Positions 4,708 to 43,177 of a stretch of 64,000 bases of DNA are shown here, in pieces. The stretch is from Escherichia phage vB_EcoM-Pr121LW, in the sequence record MH752840.1. One strand, written 5' to 3'. Position 1 is the first letter of the stretch; each line of letters starts with the position of its first letter. A program made the position numbers and the translations under genes. The notes beneath the pieces are model-generated. The model ran no database searches and was not told the DNA's origin. It saw only the letters and a program-made list of their open reading frames with translations.

Positions 4708-5057
4708 TATTCGTCCTCCTCTTCGGTGCCTGCTTCCAGTAATAAGTTAAGAATATCTTCTGCACAAGGCTCATAGAACTCTTGGCCTTCATTATCGATG
4801 ATTTTGTAGTCATCTCCACGAATAATCAGGGGATCACTCTCAAAATTATCAAGACCTTTAACAACGACAACACGATCGATTGCCATCATTGTAAGAACTT
4901 TATCGACATCTTCCTCTGCTACACCGTACTGCAGCAGAATGTCTTTGGTAGGAGGAACAGCATCCACCACAACACCGTTACCAAAACCTTCCGGAAGATT
5001 AGCTAAAATATCTTCCGGAACCACATTAACATCAAAACCAGTAATTTCTACTTTCAT
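4707..5057 (-). CDS. small acidic protein, paralog family A
   Basis: MKVEITGFD N-terminus, acidic tail EEEDE. Confidence 0.45.
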   Translation of the reverse strand: MKVEITGFDVNVVPEDILANLPEGFGNGVVVDAVPPTKDILLQYGVAEEDVDKVLTMMAIDRVVVVKGLDNFESDPLIIRGDDYKIIDNEGQEFYEPCAEDILNLLLEAGTEEEDE

Positions 5058-5318
5058 TTACAGCACCTCTTCGTCAACTACTTCATAAAAATGGCCTGGG
5101 ATTGCAATAGCGTTCTCACCTTCACCTACAAACACAGTTCCGTCAAGAATCAACATCATAAGAATTTCTGGAATATCCTCTTCCGGAACGTTGCCAAAAC
5201 CTTTAATCAGCTTGTAGGTTGGAAGATTTACCTCTAAGATGTCACCATCTTTAGAGCGGAAATCAACACCATCCTGAATCTCTGCCATTTCAAGGTTTTT
5301 CAGTTTAATCTTCATCAA
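5058..5318 (-). CDS. small acidic protein, paralog family A
   Basis: MMKIKLKN N-terminus, C-terminus VVDEEVL. Confidence 0.45.
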   Translation of the reverse strand: MMKIKLKNLEMAEIQDGVDFRSKDGDILEVNLPTYKLIKGFGNVPEEDIPEILMMLILDGTVFVGEGENAIAIPGHFYEVVDEEVL

Positions 5319-5394
5319 TCAGTCTCCTGTCTTGTTAAGATGAAGGTATTATTTCACACAGGGTTGGTGTTGTCAACACCTGTGTGCAAGAAAA

Positions 5395-5790
5395 TTACTG
5401 AAACAGTGCGGATAAATTACCTTCTGGTGGGAACTTATCTGCCAAAAACGGTGTTAGCACAGTAGCCTTCTGAAGATCTGGGGTCCACTCGTTGTTCAGA
5501 ACATCCCAGTAGTACGCAATGTTGCTGTGTGGGTGCCGCATTACGAACTTTTTCCCTTCGTAATCATCTGAAACCTCTACAGAAGAAATAACAACAGAAT
5601 CTTCAAGGGTTTCTTCATAGAAAGATCCGCCTTCAAATTTCCAACGAGATGCAAGAGCCCCTGCCTTGAACGCTGCAGATAAAGGACTGTCGGCAAGAAC
5701 ATACATTTCTTGCACTCTGTCGCTGCGATCTTTGCTTCTTACGTTGTATACAGTATCTGAGCTATACTCGACACGGTATAGGCTTATCAT
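5395..5790 (-). CDS. hypothetical protein, paralog of 7599-8012
   Basis: Shared HP.S...YW.....WTP motif with 7599-8012 product. Confidence 0.4.
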   Translation of the reverse strand: MISLYRVEYSSDTVYNVRSKDRSDRVQEMYVLADSPLSAAFKAGALASRWKFEGGSFYEETLEDSVVISSVEVSDDYEGKKFVMRHPHSNIAYYWDVLNNEWTPDLQKATVLTPFLADKFPPEGNLSALFQ

Positions 5791-6122
5791 TACCGCACCT
5801 CCTCAATAACTTCCACATCTGAACCAACAACAAATGCAAAAGGACAGGTTTCATGAAAGACATCCGGATCGCCGCCAAGCTTGCTAACAATTTCTCCACC
5901 ATTAATAAACACAAGCTCACCGATATTCATCAGATTGCTGAAATAGTATCCATAATGATTAAAGAATGCAGCGGGGTCAGGTAGACTAGTAGCCTCAAGC
6001 ACTACATCGGTTGAGGTTACTTTCTTATCATAACCTCTCGCCTTTTGAGATGCAAGATCTGCAGAATCCTCAGGCGACCGGAGATGCACAGGAATTGTTT
6101 CACCAATAAAGCGTACTTTCAT
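5790..6122 (-). CDS. small acidic protein, paralog family B (start at MKVRF; track ORF to 6149)
   Basis: MKVRF N-terminus and SDVEVIEE C-terminus resemble 8009-8480 paralogs. Confidence 0.4.
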   Translation of the reverse strand: MKVRFIGETIPVHLRSPEDSADLASQKARGYDKKVTSTDVVLEATSLPDPAAFFNHYGYYFSNLMNIGELVFINGGEIVSKLGGDPDVFHETCPFAFVVGSDVEVIEEVR

Positions 6123-6126
6123 ATTA

Positions 6127-6390
6127 TCACCCAACAACCATAGCTTCAAAAGGAGTCATGAACGAATAAACGGCATCATCATCTGCTTCAGGGAATGCTC
6201 CCAAAGACTTCATATCTGAGCCCTTGACAAATACAAGGTTTTGATCAAAGGCTTCTTGGGGGTCAATCCGATACATATTTCGTAAAATATCGCTTACCTC
6301 CTCATCAAGAGGTGAGTATGCTGTGCACGTTTTTCCGATCAAGCTTTGAGAATCAGGGTATCCACCTGAAGTTTTAAAATAAACAATCAT
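6127..6390 (-). CDS. hypothetical protein
   Basis: ORF in operon. Confidence 0.35.
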   Translation of the reverse strand: MIVYFKTSGGYPDSQSLIGKTCTAYSPLDEEVSDILRNMYRIDPQEAFDQNLVFVKGSDMKSLGAFPEADDDAVYSFMTPFEAMVVG

Positions 6391-6481
6391 ATAGTATCAC
6401 CTCTGGTAAGAGATTGGGACTCCTTTCCCACAAATAATTACAAATCTTCCTTAGCGAGGAAGTATGCTAATCCAAGCAGGA

Positions 6482-6751
6482 TTATTCCTCTACAATCTCA
6501 TACACATCAGGAGTTACAATCAACTCTTCTCCGTTACCCGGTGCAACAAACACCACCAAGCCTTCAGGTGTGTGCTTTTTAGCCATCTCGATAACATCTT
6601 CTCGCAGAGCTGGCTCCATCAGATCAAAACCTTCACCCAGTGCATCACGAACTACCTTCATGTAGTCCACTGGTTGTGCTTCAACGATCATGCCTTCAAC
6701 CAGTCCACAGTTTTTGTCTGCCAGCTCAGTTTTGAATAATTTAATTTTCAT
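6482..6751 (-). CDS. small acidic protein, paralog family A
   Basis: MKIKLFK N-terminus, YEIVEE C-terminus. Confidence 0.45.
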   Translation of the reverse strand: MKIKLFKTELADKNCGLVEGMIVEAQPVDYMKVVRDALGEGFDLMEPALREDVIEMAKKHTPEGLVVFVAPGNGEELIVTPDVYEIVEE

Positions 6752-6888
6752 TTAGAGGTCTCCTCAATTATTTGATATTAATAGCCGTAACCTAACACAT
6801 TAACTACAACTGCGATTGCAAACATAATTTCAAAGCATGCAATCTCTACATTTGGGACTAATTTCTTAATCACGCCCATTATAGCACC

Positions 6889-7206
6889 TCATTCTCCAAA
6901 GTCAATCTTTACTTTGCCTTTCCCCTTACCTTTCTTTCCACCGCATTTAGCCAGCTGACGTGCTGCAACATCTACCATACGGTCAGTTGCCTCGTAAGCA
7001 TCGCTACCTTTAGCTTTGGCGATAACTTCTTTCCCAGAATTGTCAAAAATAAAAGCCATAACTTCCTGGTGATCATTTTCAACTTTTACACTCACACGTG
7101 CATAGTTGGCAGATGGGTGCAAACGCTCCAGTTTGGACATTTTGTGGGAAATGAAAGACACCATACCTTCAGTGATCTCTACGTTGCCAGTGATTTCAAT
7201 TTGCAT
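6889..7206 (-). CDS. hpf: ribosome hibernation promoting factor / RaiA (ribosomal S30AE family) homolog
   Basis: MQIEITGNVEITEGM... N-terminus and spacing of KLE, VKVE, AKG.D.Y.A.D, DV.ARQL match bacterial HPF/YfiA as recalled; lysine/glycine-rich tail. Confidence 0.65.
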   Translation of the reverse strand: MQIEITGNVEITEGMVSFISHKMSKLERLHPSANYARVSVKVENDHQEVMAFIFDNSGKEVIAKAKGSDAYEATDRMVDVAARQLAKCGGKKGKGKGKVKIDFGE

Positions 7207-7290
7207 AACGTGTTCCTTTTAAGGAAGAGGGAATAACTATCTCTCTTTGAAAACAATGATACTAAATCTGAAGCGTTGTGTCAACAGTTT

Positions 7291-7581
7291 TTACAGCTTG
7301 TTGTCGATAGTTTTTAAAATATCCACTGCAAGATCTGCCATTTTACGAACATACTCTGCAAACTCAACAGGATCCTTGATCAATGAGTTCACAGGGTCAT
7401 ACCCTAAAGCGTTTAAAATGGCTACAGCATCCACAACCTTCTCATCGTTTGCGAAGATCTCACCGTCAAACTTGTAGGTCCATTTTGAGTCAATCTTGGC
7501 ATGGCAGGATTGGTCCATGCTTATTACACCATCTTTTTTAGACGATTCTGTGTTATCAGTATCCAAAACTAAATCCATCAT
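7291..7581 (-). CDS. hypothetical protein
   Basis: ORF. Confidence 0.35.
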   Translation of the reverse strand: MMDLVLDTDNTESSKKDGVISMDQSCHAKIDSKWTYKFDGEIFANDEKVVDAVAILNALGYDPVNSLIKDPVEFAEYVRKMADLAVDILKTIDNKL

Positions 7582-7598
7582 GTAAGTACTCCACTATT

Positions 7599-8012
7599 TC
7601 AGCTTATCTTTTCTTCAACAACCCCATAGCTTGGGGCAGAGTCAAGAGCTTTCTGGTTCAAAAGTGGTGTAGCAGAATCTGCAAACGGTGTCCAGGTTTT
7701 TGTTCTGGCATTCCAGTAATGCTTCACTCTGGAATCAGGATGCACTATAACAAAAACTTTTTCACTTGTCAACACATTAATTTCTTCCACACCCTTACTG
7801 ACAATTTCTCCGTCATAGCCCCCAGTCTGGTATCCTTCGTACCAGGTTCTTGCATAGGCATATCCGGCCTGCCAGCATGCAGCCTCTTCAGAGGTGGAGA
7901 CTACGTAGAAGTCTTTCTCAAATTCCGGGATACGCCCTTGCTTTACGCTCCAAGCTCCGCGAATTTTCATTGTAACTTTGAACAGTTTATTTTTCACAAC
8001 AGTCCCCATCAC
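7599..8012 (-). CDS. hypothetical protein, paralog of 5395-5790
   Basis: Shared IVHPDSRVKHYWNARTKTWTP motif. Confidence 0.4.
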   Translation of the reverse strand: MMGTVVKNKLFKVTMKIRGAWSVKQGRIPEFEKDFYVVSTSEEAACWQAGYAYARTWYEGYQTGGYDGEIVSKGVEEINVLTSEKVFVIVHPDSRVKHYWNARTKTWTPFADSATPLLNQKALDSAPSYGVVEEKIS

Positions 8013-8263
8013 AGCTCTAAAATATCTGCATCTGACCCTGCCCCAAAGGCATAATACGAGTCCTCTCCGAAATAATATTCCGGGGCACCAGCCGCTATTA
8101 GGTCTGATCCCAAGATGAAAACCACATTGTGGCCTACATAGCTGTGATTTTGCCGCACAGGATCATCCCACGGCAACTCTTCGAAGTATACAGCAGGTAC
8201 GACCTTTCCCTTCAGGAAGGATTGTCCCAAGTAGACGTTAGAGTCAAGAATTTTAACTTTCAT
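8009..8263 (-). CDS. small protein, paralog family B (DLIAAGA motif)
   Basis: MKVKILDS...DLIAAGA shared with 8253-8480 and 11907-12140. Confidence 0.45.
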   Translation of the reverse strand: MKVKILDSNVYLGQSFLKGKVVPAVYFEELPWDDPVRQNHSYVGHNVVFILGSDLIAAGAPEYYFGEDSYYAFGAGSDADILEL

Positions 8264-8480
8264 GATCGTCCTCCACTACCTCCACATCCTCCCCTAGGGC
8301 AAAGTTGTAGGTCCACTGACTGTCAAAGCATTCCTGAGATGCACCAGCGGCAATAAGATCTGCCCCTTTTATTTTTAAAAGGTCAGGGTAATCTTCGTTA
8401 GGGACAGCAGTAAACACTTTCCCTACTAAAAGCTCCTGACCAATATAGAAGCTTGAATCTAAAACTCTAACTTTCATCAA
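8253..8480 (-). CDS. small protein, paralog family B (DLIAAGA motif)
   Basis: MMKVRVLDS...ADLIAAGA. Confidence 0.45.
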   Translation of the reverse strand: MMKVRVLDSSFYIGQELLVGKVFTAVPNEDYPDLLKIKGADLIAAGASQECFDSQWTYNFALGEDVEVVEDDHES

Positions 8481-8764
8481 CGGTCTCCATCAGGTGGTTG
8501 TGGGACGTAAACACTGTTACGAATATCGTCCGCAGTATAGTAATAAGTGTCTCCAACCCTATCTCTAGCTGCAATGTACTCTGCTATACCAATAAGTGCC
8601 ATTGATTTGGTGGCGTATCTTCCCAACTCGTTAGCTCCCCAGTAGAATTTAGACCAATAGGGAATAAGACCGAACAAATATACCTTTTGACGAACTTCCC
8701 AGTAAGTGCCTTTCCCGACAAGTTTAAACTCGACTTCACCACTGTTAATCTTTTTCATTATCAA
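8477..8764 (-). CDS. hypothetical protein
   Basis: ORF with 4-nt overlaps. Confidence 0.35.
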   Translation of the reverse strand: MIMKKINSGEVEFKLVGKGTYWEVRQKVYLFGLIPYWSKFYWGANELGRYATKSMALIGIAEYIAARDRVGDTYYYTADDIRNSVYVPQPPDGDR

Positions 8765-9156
8765 TCTCCCTCCACCGTGGTCGGATTGTCAGTAAGAAAT
8801 TGAGCATTAGCTGGAGGAACACCTGACATTTTCCACACAACCATAAGTTTGTAACCAGGCACTCTATTAAGTGCAGATCGAGTAGAGTTTGTGCACGTAT
8901 ACTTTCGCTTTCCAAACCCGTTCTCCATCATAATCCAGTACCCAGTATCTTTGTCACCAGGTATTGGTAGACCACCTTCATCAACCCACTGAATGGACCA
9001 CGGCACGATGGCTACAGCTTTATATTTAAACTTTTTAAACCACTGAAAAAGTTTCATAATCCAGCCTCGCATAGACATAATCACTATAAACAGGCAAACA
9101 ATGAATCCGAATGCCACGCCACCCATAAACGTTAATATTGATGCAATCATAGTCAA
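8761..9156 (-). CDS. hypothetical membrane-anchored protein
   Basis: N-terminal hydrophobic helix IASILTFMGGVAFGFIVCLFIVIM. Confidence 0.35.
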   Translation of the reverse strand: MTMIASILTFMGGVAFGFIVCLFIVIMSMRGWIMKLFQWFKKFKYKAVAIVPWSIQWVDEGGLPIPGDKDTGYWIMMENGFGKRKYTCTNSTRSALNRVPGYKLMVVWKMSGVPPANAQFLTDNPTTVEGD

Positions 9157-9338
9157 TCAGCCTCGCTTGGCAACTCTTCTACCTTAACATGCCGAAAAGT
9201 GTTACCGTAATGGTTGATCCATGACATCAGCTCGCTTTCTTGCTCTTCCTCTGGAATGCACTCTCGAATGCTGACAAGTTTTAAGAAAACCCAATCGCAA
9301 TCTGCACCCATTCTACCAGATAGACAATAGTGCTTCAT
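9153..9338 (-). CDS. hypothetical small protein
   Basis: ORF, overlaps neighbour. Confidence 0.3.
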   Translation of the reverse strand: MKHYCLSGRMGADCDWVFLKLVSIRECIPEEEQESELMSWINHYGNTFRHVKVEELPSEAD

Positions 9339-9357
9339 AAAAACCCTCTACCTTGGT

Positions 9358-9558
9358 TTAGAATACTGCCTCTTTTAATGATCCAAGGAGCAGTAGGTGT
9401 GAAATCTGATCCACATTCATGGTAGATTCAATCTCCTCTTTTTTGAAAGGTTCTCGGCAAAACAGTACTACATTTGGGTTTTCGCTACGCACTATATAAT
9501 ACAGATCGTTCAAATCATTCTCATAGTAGGTATTAAATTTAAGAATTTTGTCACTCAT
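9358..9558 (-). CDS. hypothetical small protein
   Basis: ORF. Confidence 0.3.
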   Translation of the reverse strand: MSDKILKFNTYYENDLNDLYYIVRSENPNVVLFCREPFKKEEIESTMNVDQISHLLLLGSLKEAVF

Positions 9559-42236: not shown

Positions 42237-42311
42237 GCCCTGTTAGCTTAGTGGATAAAGCAGCGGCCTTCTAAGCCGTTGACACTGGTTCGAGTCCAGT
42301 ACGGGGTGCCA
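42237..42311 (+). tRNA. tRNA-Arg (anticodon TCT)
   Basis: Manual cloverleaf: 7-bp acceptor stem, D-stem GCTT/AAGC, anticodon loop CTTCTAA, T-loop TTCGAGT, encoded CCA. Confidence 0.75.
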
Positions 42312-42442
42312 AGTTCTTTTTAATGTAGCTTACTTTAGCAGAGTAAATCTTCGGCAAGTGGCGGTAACCACTTTTACCGATACCTCATAGTTAGTGGTGA
42401 GAACACTAGCTATTTTAAAAAGAATTTAAATATTAGTATTTA

Positions 42443-42530
42443 GGTGAGTTAATTCCGTAGGGGTAGCGGGGCAGACTGTAAATCTGTTATCATTGCGATT
42501 CGGGTGGTTCGACTCCATCACTCACCACCA
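42443..42530 (+). tRNA. tRNA-Tyr (anticodon GTA), long variable arm
   Basis: Perfect 7-bp acceptor stem GGTGAGT/ACTCACC, anticodon arm GCAGA-CTGTAAA-TCTGT, T-loop TTCGACT, CCA; 88 nt. Confidence 0.7.
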
Positions 42531-42644
42531 AATTTATATTTTTAAATGCATAAATTATACAGATAATGGCATTGATATTTATCGTCGTTTATACTAGTCA
42601 CTAACTGCTCGAAAATCAGTGTCATTATCAGTATTGTTTATAAA

Positions 42645-42735
42645 AGAGGGTAGGGAGCAATGGTGCTCAAGCGGTCTTGAAAACCGTCCCGTTGAGGATG
42701 ACTCGATGATGGTTCGATTCCATTACCCTCTGCCA
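42645..42735 (+). tRNA. tRNA-Ser (anticodon TGA), long variable arm
   Basis: Perfect 7-bp acceptor stem AGAGGGT/ACCCTCT, anticodon loop CTTGAAA, T-loop TTCGATT, CCA; 91 nt. Confidence 0.7.
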
Positions 42736-42833
42736 TATTGTTGACCTTGTAATTAAGCGAAAGCCGGAAGCAGAACCGGATTATCAAATGTTACAGTCGT
42801 CATCGCCGACTAGCAACATTGTCAACATACTGA

Positions 42834-42932
42834 GCTAGGTAAGCCCTTTGGCAAGGGCGAGGATTTTTAATCCTGAAAATAGACGAGGTAGTCGTTGAAT
42901 ACATAGGTGGTTCGATTCCACCACCTAGCACC
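42834..42932 (+). tRNA. atypical tRNA-like gene (anticodon loop TTTTTAA, possibly Lys-TTT), ~30-nt extra region, no full CCA
   Basis: Acceptor GCTAGGT/ACCTAGC, D-arm GCCC-TTTGGCAA-GGGC, T-arm GGTGG-TTCGATT-CCACC are clean; anticodon stem and variable region are irregular. Confidence 0.35.
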
Positions 42933-42937
42933 TTTTT

Positions 42938-43013
42938 GCTGATGTAGCACAATTGGTAGTGCAATTGATTTGTAATCAATAGGTTGCAGGTTCAAGTCCT
43001 GCCATCAGCACCA
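42938..43013 (+). tRNA. tRNA-Thr (anticodon TGT)
   Basis: Acceptor GCTGATG/CATCAGC, D-stem GCAC/GTGC, anticodon arm ATTGA-TTTGTAA-TCAAT, T-loop TTCAAGT, CCA. Confidence 0.8.
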
Positions 43014-43014
43014 T

Positions 43015-43089
43015 GGCCCTGTAGCTGGAAGGTTCAAGCAAGCGACTCATAATCGCCAGACGGTGGTTCAATTCCACCCAGGGCCACCA
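43015..43089 (+). tRNA. tRNA-Met or tRNA-Ile2 (anticodon CAT), elongator type
   Basis: Acceptor GGCCCTG/CAGGGCC with G1-C72 pair, anticodon loop CTCATAA, T-arm GGTGG-TTCAATT-CCACC, CCA. Confidence 0.7.
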
Positions 43090-43100
43090 AATAGTAAATA

Positions 43101-43177
43101 CTCCGCGTAGCTCAGCTTGGTAGAGCGCCTGATTTGGGATCAGGAGGTCGAGTGTTCGAATCACTCCGTGGAGACCA
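43101..43177 (+). tRNA. tRNA-Pro (anticodon TGG)
   Basis: C1-G72 acceptor pair as in bacterial tRNA-Pro, D-stem GCTC/GAGC, anticodon arm CCTGA-TTTGGGA-TCAGG, T-loop TTCGAAT, CCA. Confidence 0.8.

What the first reader, a model, noticed from the sequence alone, without database searches (positions are those of the whole stretch)
6889..7206. Phage-encoded ribosome hibernation factor (HPF/RaiA) homolog
The 105-aa product begins MQIEITGNVEITEGM and keeps the conserved positions of bacterial HPF/YfiA through the whole S30AE core, then ends in a lysine/glycine-rich tail. A phage copy could shut down or reprogram host ribosomes; it sits in the early small-gene block.
Basis: partly seen in the sequence, partly recalled or inferred. 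Interest (0 to 1): 0.65.

Follow-up and report, generated by a model that had tools for sequence, protein, structure and literature searches.

The report
Known phage rV5 ribosome-hibernation-factor homolog
This gene of an rV5-type E. coli phage really does encode a copy of the bacterial ribosome hibernation factor HPF, but it has been annotated since 2008 and was published and partly tested in 2019, so only its role in infection remains open.

Summary
Window 6889-7206, on the minus strand, encodes a 105-aa protein that passes Pfam Ribosomal_S30AE (E 1.8e-12) and TIGR00741. [quoted passage not shown] The last 16 residues form a disordered Lys/Gly-rich tail.

It is not new. The window is a Vequintavirus (rV5-like), and the protein is 100% identical to rV5 ORF144 (ABI79209), annotated 'sigma 54 modulation factor' in the original record. 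Mizuno et al. 2019 (Nat Commun, PMC6375957) described it as a phage HPF and expressed it in E. coli. They found it in extracts but not in salt-washed 70S/100S ribosomes, and 100S formation did not change.

What I add:
- The core is under strong purifying selection (dN/dS 0-0.05).
- Syntenic orthologs in two more divergent phage lineages are 55-64% identical.
- About half of the published HPF ribosome-contact residues are replaced in a way conserved across the phage lineages.
- In Mizuno's own data, host HPF was also absent from the washed ribosomes, so their negative result does not show loss of binding.

Most likely it is a weakly binding, HPF-derived 30S ligand made from a host-type promoter. 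Whether it shuts down, protects or 'un-hibernates' ribosomes is untested.

The parts
6889..7206 (-). hpf-like gene (ortholog of rV5 ORF144): 105 codons plus TGA
   Evidence: ORF list. Pfam S30AE E 1.8e-12. 100% identical to the rV5, nimi and other Vequintavirus copies.
6940..7206 (-). [quoted passage not shown]
   Evidence: AF2 model with pLDDT 80-97 over residues 1-89. Foldseek to HPF structures at rmsd 1.0-1.6 A. dN/dS 0-0.05 for codons 1-88.
6889..6939 (-). Region coding the disordered Lys/Gly-rich C-terminal tail (residues 90-105, GGKKGKGKGKVKIDFGE) plus the stop codon
   Evidence: pLDDT below 50. Net charge +4. The sequence is variable between lineages but always basic. Indels in the GGGGAAAGG run truncate it in APCEc02 and Murica.
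7214..7218 (-). Shine-Dalgarno-like AAGGA, 7 nt upstream of the ATG
   Evidence: Read directly from the sequence. Conserved in rV5, Aya and JES2013.
7256..7284 (-). Sigma70-type promoter TTGACA-17-TATCAT (11 of 12 matches); equals rV5 'P144'
   Evidence: Consensus scan. Annotated as promoter P144 in DQ832317. Conserved in four Vequintavirus genomes, and the -35 TTGACA is also present in L003. Activity has not been measured.
6778..6879 (-). 33-aa hydrophobic ORF immediately downstream (rV5 ORF145); probably co-transcribed
   Evidence: ORF list. phrog_15151, unknown function. Annotated in rV5, FV3 and JES2013.
6482..6751 (-). 89-aa acidic ORF (rV5 ORF146), which follows hpf in all three phage lineages; not an S30AE protein despite its label in some records
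   Evidence: No Pfam hit. phrog_11868, unknown function. An 89-aa gene follows hpf in L003 and L006.
6446..6462 (-). Terminator-like hairpin that would close a P144-hpf-ORF145-ORF146 unit
   Evidence: Consensus scan only: 1 found against 0.9 expected in shuffles. Weak evidence.

Best explanation
The gene encodes a phage-adapted descendant of an enterobacterial-type short HPF (the hpf/yhbH type, not raiA).

Shown:
- It has the S30AE fold.
- It keeps the fold-determining residues and four of the published rRNA-contact residues: Lys25 (E. coli K26), Asp75, Arg83 (the contact to m4C1402) and Lys87. Lys91 is also kept in this lineage.
- It has been held under strong purifying selection in at least three rV5-related lineages.
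- It is preceded by a near-consensus sigma70 promoter and a Shine-Dalgarno sequence.
- It is translated to full length in E. coli: the C-terminal peptide VKIDFGE was detected by Mizuno 2019.

Inferred:
- It is made by host RNA polymerase early in infection.
- It binds, reversibly and in a salt-sensitive way, in the tRNA/mRNA channel of the 30S subunit of vacant ribosomes, as HPF does.
- Its interface is remodelled. The uS9-contact pair His55/Glu60 becomes Phe54/Lys59. The m2G966 patch Thr53/His62 becomes Phe/Arg52 and Ile/Met/Leu62. Lys80 and Lys89 are lost. New lysines appear at positions 64 and 66.
- The basic tail extends about 10 residues beyond HPF, to a YfiA-like length. It may reach toward the uS7 and RMF region.
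- The most likely consequence is that the phage sets the pool of idle ribosomes to a 70S state it controls. It would do this by competing with host YfiA/HPF/RMF rather than by durable shut-off.
For: Family and fold.

Closer to HPF than to RaiA: 55.8 against 17.6 bits; E 5e-12 against 0.35-0.78. The nearest cellular proteins are enterobacterial HPFs at 40-45% identity.

Selection: dN/dS is 0-0.05 at dS 0.1-0.6 among 11 Vequintavirus copies. Between the three lineages pS is about 0.8 (saturated) against pN 0.12-0.25. The orthologs P0004 and P0019 are syntenic.

Contact-residue mapping: against the residue list in bioRxiv 10.1101/2025.10.07.680626.

Promoter and SD.

Expression of the full-length protein in E. 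coli: PMC6375957 Table 2.

The published negative binding result is not decisive. Host HPF and RMF were present in the crude extract (Supplementary Data 5) but absent from all three salt-washed ribosome preparations.

Weak hint of competition: host YfiA was detected in ribosomes from cells expressing bS21 and bL12, but not in ribosomes from cells expressing the viral HPF.
Against: No direct evidence of ribosome binding exists. The only experiment found no viral HPF in 70S/100S fractions and no change in the 100S peak.

Seven of about 14 published contact positions are non-conservatively changed, including the 'strictly conserved' Lys80 and Lys89. That is also what would be expected if ribosome binding had been lost.

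The YfiA observation is a single unreplicated mass-spectrometry comparison with low peptide counts.

Expression timing has not been measured. The role of the tail is pure inference: it is disordered, variable, and truncated in two deposited genomes.
Confidence: 0.5

Rival explanations
1. Classical hibernation or shut-off factor. The protein binds vacant 70S or 30S as tightly as HPF and blocks tRNA/mRNA binding. It would either silence host translation early, or park and protect ribosomes from RNases and defence nucleases during infection.
For: The fold and the central Arg83/Lys87/Lys25 contacts are kept. The gene has its own sigma70 promoter in a block of small genes typical of host-takeover functions (PMC3606486).
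Against: Constitutive arabinose-driven expression from overnight culture to OD 1 allowed normal growth and gave a normal 70S profile, with no extra 100S. A general block would also hit phage mRNAs. The uS9 and m2G966 contact sets are replaced.
Confidence: 0.2
2. Anti-hibernation decoy (the hypothesis of Mizuno et al.). The protein competes with host HPF/YfiA/RMF and keeps ribosomes out of 100S or YfiA-locked states, so that phage mRNAs are translated in slow-growing or stationary hosts. This overlaps with the outcome proposed in the best explanation.
For: HPF-type core combined with a longer basic tail of YfiA-like length. YfiA's tail is reported to block RMF binding (PMC7764885). Host YfiA was missing only from ribosomes of cells expressing the viral HPF. 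The hypothesis is stated in PMC6375957.
Against: The small 100S peak was unchanged. The YfiA difference is n=1. No infection data exist.
Confidence: 0.2
3. Neofunctionalised S30AE fold. Ribosome binding is lost, and the conserved phage-specific surface (Phe54, Lys59, Lys64, Lys66, plus the basic tail) binds another RNA or protein.
For: Lys80, Lys89, Thr53, His55, Glu60 and Tyr30 are lost, and the replacements are conserved across the three lineages. The protein was absent from ribosome fractions. It has its own PHROG family (12469), annotated as of unknown function.
Against: Arg83, Lys87, Lys25 and Asp75 are invariant in all phage lineages. Host HPF also fails the same assay. No alternative partner is suggested by any data.
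Confidence: 0.1

Closest known systems
E. coli / enterobacterial short HPF (YhbH; PDB 2RQL, 4V8H, 6H4N, 6Y69)
   Same: Same fold, at rmsd 1.2-1.6 A and 40-45% identity. Same N-terminal MQxxITG-NVEIT motif. Lys26, Asp75, Arg83 and Lys87 are kept. Similar size.
   Different: Below the HPF equivalog cut-off (55.8 against 125 bits). Residue 8 is deleted in most copies. Tyr30, Thr53, His55, Glu60, His62, Lys80 and Lys89 are replaced. pI is 8.7 against 6.5. A 10-residue longer Lys/Gly tail. Encoded by a lytic phage behind a sigma70 promoter, rather than in the rpoN operon.
E. coli YfiA/RaiA (protein Y; PDB 4V8I, 1N3G)
   Same: Same fold. Both have a C-terminal extension beyond the HPF length that starts basic. 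Both would be expected to give 70S monomers rather than 100S.
   Different: Weak sequence match only (RaiA equivalog 17.6 against 158 bits; PDB E 0.35-0.78). The RefSeq product name 'RaiA' is therefore a family-level label. The tail sequences are unrelated.
rV5 ORF144 / 'phage HPF' of Mizuno et al. 2019 (ABI79209)
   Same: Identical protein sequence. Same locus and same promoter.
   Different: None. This is the same gene in a 96%-identical genome.
S30AE proteins of jumbo phages (Cronobacter GAP32 K4F6Q6; E. coli PBECO4 L7TII8; phrog_8990)
   Same: Phage-encoded HPF-fold proteins. phrog_8990 matches at E 1.5e-6.
   Different: Only 19-24% identity, in a different PHROG. Mizuno 2019 places GAP32 elsewhere in the tree. 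These are independent acquisitions.

Membership tests
Pfam PF02482 Ribosomal_S30AE / TIGR00741 HPF-YfiA family | Score above the curated HMM cut-offs over the full domain | tested here: met
   PF02482: 48.3 bits against 23.7, residues 3-88. TIGR00741: 45.9 against 40.9.
Pfam PF02482 Ribosomal_S30AE / TIGR00741 HPF-YfiA family | [quoted passage not shown] | tested here: met
   AF2 model topology. Foldseek top 37 PDB hits are all HPF/YfiA/pY, with TM up to 0.93 and rmsd 1.0-1.6 A.
Short HPF (hpf/yhbH equivalog, NF007780) | Score above the equivalog cut-off (125 bits) | tested here: not met
   55.8 bits. It is a diverged relative, not an equivalog.
Short HPF (hpf/yhbH equivalog, NF007780) | Conserved alpha2 basic track (K80, R83, K87, K89, K91) and the beta-sheet contacts T53/H62 (m2G966) and H55/E60 (uS9) | tested here: not met
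   R83, K87 and K91 are kept. K80 becomes V, K89 becomes G, T53 becomes F, H55 becomes F, E60 becomes K, and H62 becomes I.
Short HPF (hpf/yhbH equivalog, NF007780) | Binds 30S/70S and, together with RMF, converts 90S to 100S dimers | not testable with these tools
   The published test was negative under a 500 mM NH4Cl wash at OD 1. Host HPF was also not recovered in those preparations, so the test is inconclusive.
RaiA/YfiA (NF007654 equivalog) | Score above the equivalog cut-off (158 bits) | tested here: not met
   17.6 bits.
RaiA/YfiA (NF007654 equivalog) | C-terminal tail that blocks RMF binding and so prevents 100S formation | not testable with these tools
   A tail of comparable reach is present (16 residues beyond helix alpha2). 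Its sequence is unrelated and its path on the ribosome is unknown.
Long HPF (Gram-positive type) | C-terminal dimerisation domain (about 60 aa) after a linker | tested here: not met
   The protein is 105 aa. Residues 90-105 are disordered, with no second domain.

The most novel reading that the evidence does not exclude
The phage protein is not a hibernation factor but an evolved antagonist of host hibernation. It would have a remodelled, low-affinity HPF core that transiently occupies the decoding channel and evicts YfiA/HPF. Its basic tail would exclude RMF. This would let rV5-type phages re-awaken or keep available the ribosomes of slow-growing gut E. coli. The only empirical hint is that host YfiA is missing specifically from ribosomes of cells expressing it, in the supplementary data of Mizuno 2019.
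Probability: 0.2. Interest if true: 0.6.

Novelty: already known. Interest (0 to 1): 0.25.

Why it matters
Phage-encoded translation factors are one way viruses may take over or preserve the host's protein-synthesis machinery. A phage HPF could explain how some coliphages cope with slow-growing or stationary hosts, such as those in the gut. However, this gene has been annotated for over 15 years and was highlighted and tested in a 2019 paper, so re-finding it adds no discovery.

What remains valuable is that its function is still unresolved. The published negative binding result is weaker than it looks, because the host's own HPF failed the same assay. The residue map given here tells an experimenter which surfaces to mutate.

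Tried and rejected
1. A second S30AE gene next door. Some records label the ortholog of window 6482-6751 'sigma 54 modulation factor'. It has no Pfam hit and belongs to an unknown-function PHROG. The label is an off-by-one error that started in APCEc02 and was propagated.

2. A regulatory 5'-UTR hairpin between the promoter and the SD. It is not better than shuffled sequence in the window (z -0.47) or in rV5 (z -0.36), and is marginal in Aya (z -1.97). Dropped.

3. P0122, a 1160-aa protein with E 2.9e-9 in the exhaustive search. It is a sum of eight weak matches to an unrelated repeat protein. Spurious.

4. Recent transfer from the host, as suggested in Mizuno 2019. This is not supported. The best cellular match is only about 45% identical among 1.84 billion cluster representatives. 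Synonymous sites are saturated between phage lineages.

5. My first dN/dS run for P0004 and P0019 used a wrongly placed gap. It was corrected.

6. Literature searches for later functional work on a phage HPF, or for an rV5-type transcriptome, found nothing beyond Mizuno 2019 and passing mentions.

7. The Polikanov 2012 paper, which I tried under the id PMC3377384, is not held in the library. Statements about YfiA's tail rest on PMC7764885 and on the 2025 preprint.

Full report
**The observation**

The coordinates 6889-7206 delimit an ATG-to-TGA ORF of 105 codons on the minus strand. Five codons upstream there is an AAGGA Shine-Dalgarno-like element, 7 nt before the ATG. Further upstream, at 7284-7256, lies TTGACA-17-TATCAT, matching 11 of 12 positions of the sigma70 consensus.

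**Family and fold**

- The protein passes Pfam Ribosomal_S30AE (E 1.8e-12; 48.3 bits against a gathering score of 23.7; residues 3-88).
- It passes the NCBIfam HPF/YfiA family model TIGR00741 (45.9 against 40.9 bits).
- It is much closer to HPF than to RaiA. The HPF equivalog model scores 55.8 bits and the RaiA model 17.6 bits. Both are far below their equivalog cut-offs of 125 and 158.
- Among PDB sequences, E. coli HPF matches at E about 5e-12 over residues 1-89, while YfiA/protein Y matches only at E 0.35-0.78.
- An AlphaFold2 model built on a 60-sequence alignment has mean pLDDT 84. [quoted passage not shown] Residues 90-105 have pLDDT below 50.
- In Foldseek against the PDB, the top 37 hits are all HPF, YfiA or pY. 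V. cholerae HPF gives TM 0.91-0.93 and rmsd 1.0-1.1 A. E. coli HPF gives rmsd 1.2-1.6 A at 42% identity.

**What genome this is, and what is already known**

The surrounding 4.5 kb is 93-96% identical to more than 100 Vequintavirus (rV5-like) genomes. tblastn finds the protein in 117 such records at 94-100% identity; the only other record matched is a Salmonella genome at 42% identity. It is 100% identical to the rV5 protein itself.

In the original rV5 record, DQ832317, it is ORF144, 'sigma 54 modulation factor'. The same promoter is annotated there as P144. Other records call it hpf, ribosome hibernation factor, or RaiA.

Mizuno et al. 2019 (Nat Commun 10:752, PMC6375957; preprint 10.1101/174177) list ABI79209 in their Table 1 as a phage HPF. 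They discuss its phylogeny amid gammaproteobacterial sequences. They propose that viral HPF might compete with the cellular protein and prevent ribosome dimerisation.

They also tested it, expressing it from pBAD24 in E. coli NM522:
- Peptides including the C-terminal VKIDFGE were found in crude extract.
- None were found in purified 70S/100S.
- The 100S peak did not change.

PMC6969025 cites the hpf gene again as an auxiliary gene of five gut rV5 isolates, 'as already described'. Searches for later functional work found nothing. The finding is therefore already known. The gene's role in infection is not.

**Evolutionary analysis**

The word-indexed search and the exhaustive HMMER search show one tight phage clade. 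After that, nothing is closer than about 45% identity. The nearest cellular proteins are 95-aa enterobacterial HPFs at 38-45% identity.

Two more divergent members, P0004 (64% identical) and P0019 (56%), lie on phage-like contigs of up to 137 kb. They sit in the same block of small genes and are followed by the same 89-aa gene. These contigs match cultured Vequintaviruses over only 15-19% of the 8.3-kb region queried, so they represent separate lineages.

Selection on the core:
- Among 11 Vequintavirus copies, codons 1-88 show dN/dS of 0-0.05 at dS 0.1-0.6.
- Between the three lineages, synonymous sites are saturated (pS about 0.8) while pN is 0.12-0.25.

The core has therefore been under strong constraint for a long time. 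The acquisition is old relative to the diversification of these phages, which qualifies the 'relatively recent' transfer suggested in 2019.

The tail is different. Its sequence is not conserved between lineages, but it stays basic (net +3 to +4):
- GGKKGKGKGKVKIDFGE in the window
- SKSKGIDKRTAKWDY in P0004
- NLTKSRRASKQEITLY in P0019

Its last residues vary (DFGE, DFWD, DFLD). One-base indels in the GGGGAAAGG run truncate it in the deposited APCEc02 and Murica genomes. Those indels could be real or could be homopolymer sequencing errors.

**Residue-level comparison with the ribosome-binding surface**

A 2025 cryo-EM preprint (10.1101/2025.10.07.680626) lists the HPF contacts in Gram-negative ribosomes:
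- the alpha2 basic track K80, R83, K87, K89 and K91
- T53 and H62 against m2G966
- H55 and E60 against the C-terminus of uS9
- K26 and Q29 against phosphates near m3U1498
- Y30 stacking on A790
- N86 against m3U1498

Mapping these through the 60-sequence alignment gives the following:

| E. coli HPF position | Phage protein (window; other lineages) |
|---|---|
| K26 | kept (K25) |
| D75, R83, K87 | kept in all three phage lineages |
| K91 | kept in this lineage only |
| Q29 | R |
| Y30 | L (I in P0019) |
| T53 | F (R in P0004 and P0019) |
| H55 | F |
| E60 | K |
| H62 | I (M, L) |
| K80 | V (T, I) |
| K89 | G (S, N) |
| residue 8 | deleted |

New lysines appear at positions 64 and 66. Several of these changes (F54, K59, K64, K66) are invariant across the three phage lineages. 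This argues for a selected, altered surface rather than decay. Overall, 30 of the 57 columns that are at least 90% conserved in bacterial HPFs are kept. The predicted pI rises from 6.5 for E. coli HPF to 8.7-9.7.

**Re-reading the published experiment**

Ribosomes were pelleted through 500 mM NH4Cl from cells harvested at OD600 = 1.
- The crude extract of the cells expressing viral HPF contains host RMF, host HPF and host YfiA (Supplementary Data 5).
- Neither host HPF nor RMF appears in any of the three ribosome preparations.

So the closest host homolog fails the same assay, and the absence of the viral protein does not show that it cannot bind.

Host YfiA does survive the wash in ribosomes from cells expressing bS21 (1 peptide) and bL12 (2 peptides, 6 spectra). 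It is absent from the 71-protein list for ribosomes from cells expressing the viral HPF. That would fit competition for the shared site, but it is a single unreplicated comparison. I treat it only as a hint.

**Mechanism**

I commit to the following, at about 0.5 confidence. The protein is an HPF-derived ligand of the 30S decoding channel. It is made from a host-type promoter and binds reversibly through a remodelled interface. It has a basic tail of YfiA-like reach. It resets which factor occupies idle ribosomes rather than imposing a durable block.

- Shown: family, fold, selection, synteny, promoter-like and SD-like elements, and production of the full-length protein in E. coli.
- Inferred: early timing, ribosome binding, the path of the tail, and the physiological outcome.

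The rivals are:
- a classical shut-off or protective hibernation factor, which is disfavoured because constitutive expression allowed normal growth and a normal ribosome profile
- a pure anti-hibernation decoy, which is Mizuno's idea and overlaps with my reading
- a neofunctionalised fold that no longer binds ribosomes

**Context**

The rV5 paper describes 88 mainly small ORFs in this part of the genome. It proposes that genes 82-163 form one transcriptional unit with sigma70-type promoters, but it has no timing data (PMC3606486).

In the window, hpf is followed by a 33-aa hydrophobic ORF, an 89-aa acidic ORF and a weak terminator-like hairpin. All neighbours belong to PHROGs of unknown function. 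The cassette is flanked by paralogous gene modules.

IMG/VR holds only two further loci with this phage-type HPF. HPF-fold proteins in the jumbo phages GAP32 and PBECO4 are only 19-24% identical, and so are separate acquisitions.

**Verdict**

Interest is low to moderate, and only because the function remains open.

Noticed in passing
window 6482-6751 (-): The 89-aa gene two ORFs downstream of hpf is labelled 'sigma 54 modulation factor' in APCEc02, nimi, nomo and ECP32, but it has no S30AE signal. In APCEc02 the true hpf gene is 'hypothetical' and its neighbour carries the name. This is an off-by-one annotation error that has spread by similarity transfer.
   Followed up: yes
window 6889-7206 (-), as annotated in OR062525/OR062528/OR062530 and MT884009/MT884011: The same hpf gene is annotated 'ATP-dependent protease La Type I' in several recent Vequintavirus records. 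This is clearly wrong for a 105-aa S30AE protein.
   Followed up: partly
window 5000-9500, compared with MG0656xx records: Eighteen GenBank records named 'Campylobacter phage' (one checked here, MG065653.1, is marked UNVERIFIED and classified under Vequintavirinae) match this E. coli Vequintavirus region; those listed are about 96% identical. The host assignment looks erroneous.
   Followed up: partly
window 5395-6390 and 7599-8480 (-): Paralogous small-gene modules flank the hpf cassette. 5395-5790 and 7599-8012 are both phrog_7379 (28% identity, E 3e-10). 8009-8263 and 8253-8480 are both phrog_5009 (39% identity), with weaker similarity to 5790-6149 and 6127-6390. All are of unknown function.
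   Followed up: partly
window 6878-6905 (-): A near-consensus sigma70-like site with an extended -10 (TTGACT-16-TGcTATAAT, 11 of 12) lies inside the last hpf codons (K-I-D-F) and overlaps the ATG of the 33-aa ORF. The TTGACT is kept in FV3 and ECP32 even where the final residues differ. DNA-level constraint may therefore shape the end of the tail.
   Followed up: partly
window 42237-43177 (+): A cluster of six tRNA calls (Arg-tct, Ser-tga, Thr-tgt, Met-cat, Pro-tgg). One 99-nt ARAGORN call at 42834-42932 has an undetermined identity and a four-base anticodon 'atcc'.
   Followed up: no
L011 (APCEc02) and L012 (Murica), tail-coding region; corresponds to window about 6905-6925: One-base indels (+1 and -1) in the GGGGAAAGG run of the tail-coding region give truncated tails of 101 and 99 aa in two deposited genomes. 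These are either natural tail-length variation or homopolymer sequencing errors.
   Followed up: partly
L010, L012, L014 (C14, Murica, nomo); corresponds to window about 7183-7185: Some Vequintavirus copies carry an extra Asn codon (GNNVEIT). This restores the bacterial spacing of the beta1-alpha1 loop, which contacts 16S rRNA in some HPF structures.
   Followed up: no
PMC6375957 Supplementary Data 2-5: Host YfiA is detected in salt-washed ribosomes from cells expressing phage bS21 or bL12, but not from cells expressing the rV5 HPF, although it is present in the extract of those cells. Host HPF and RMF are absent from all three ribosome preparations.
   Followed up: yes
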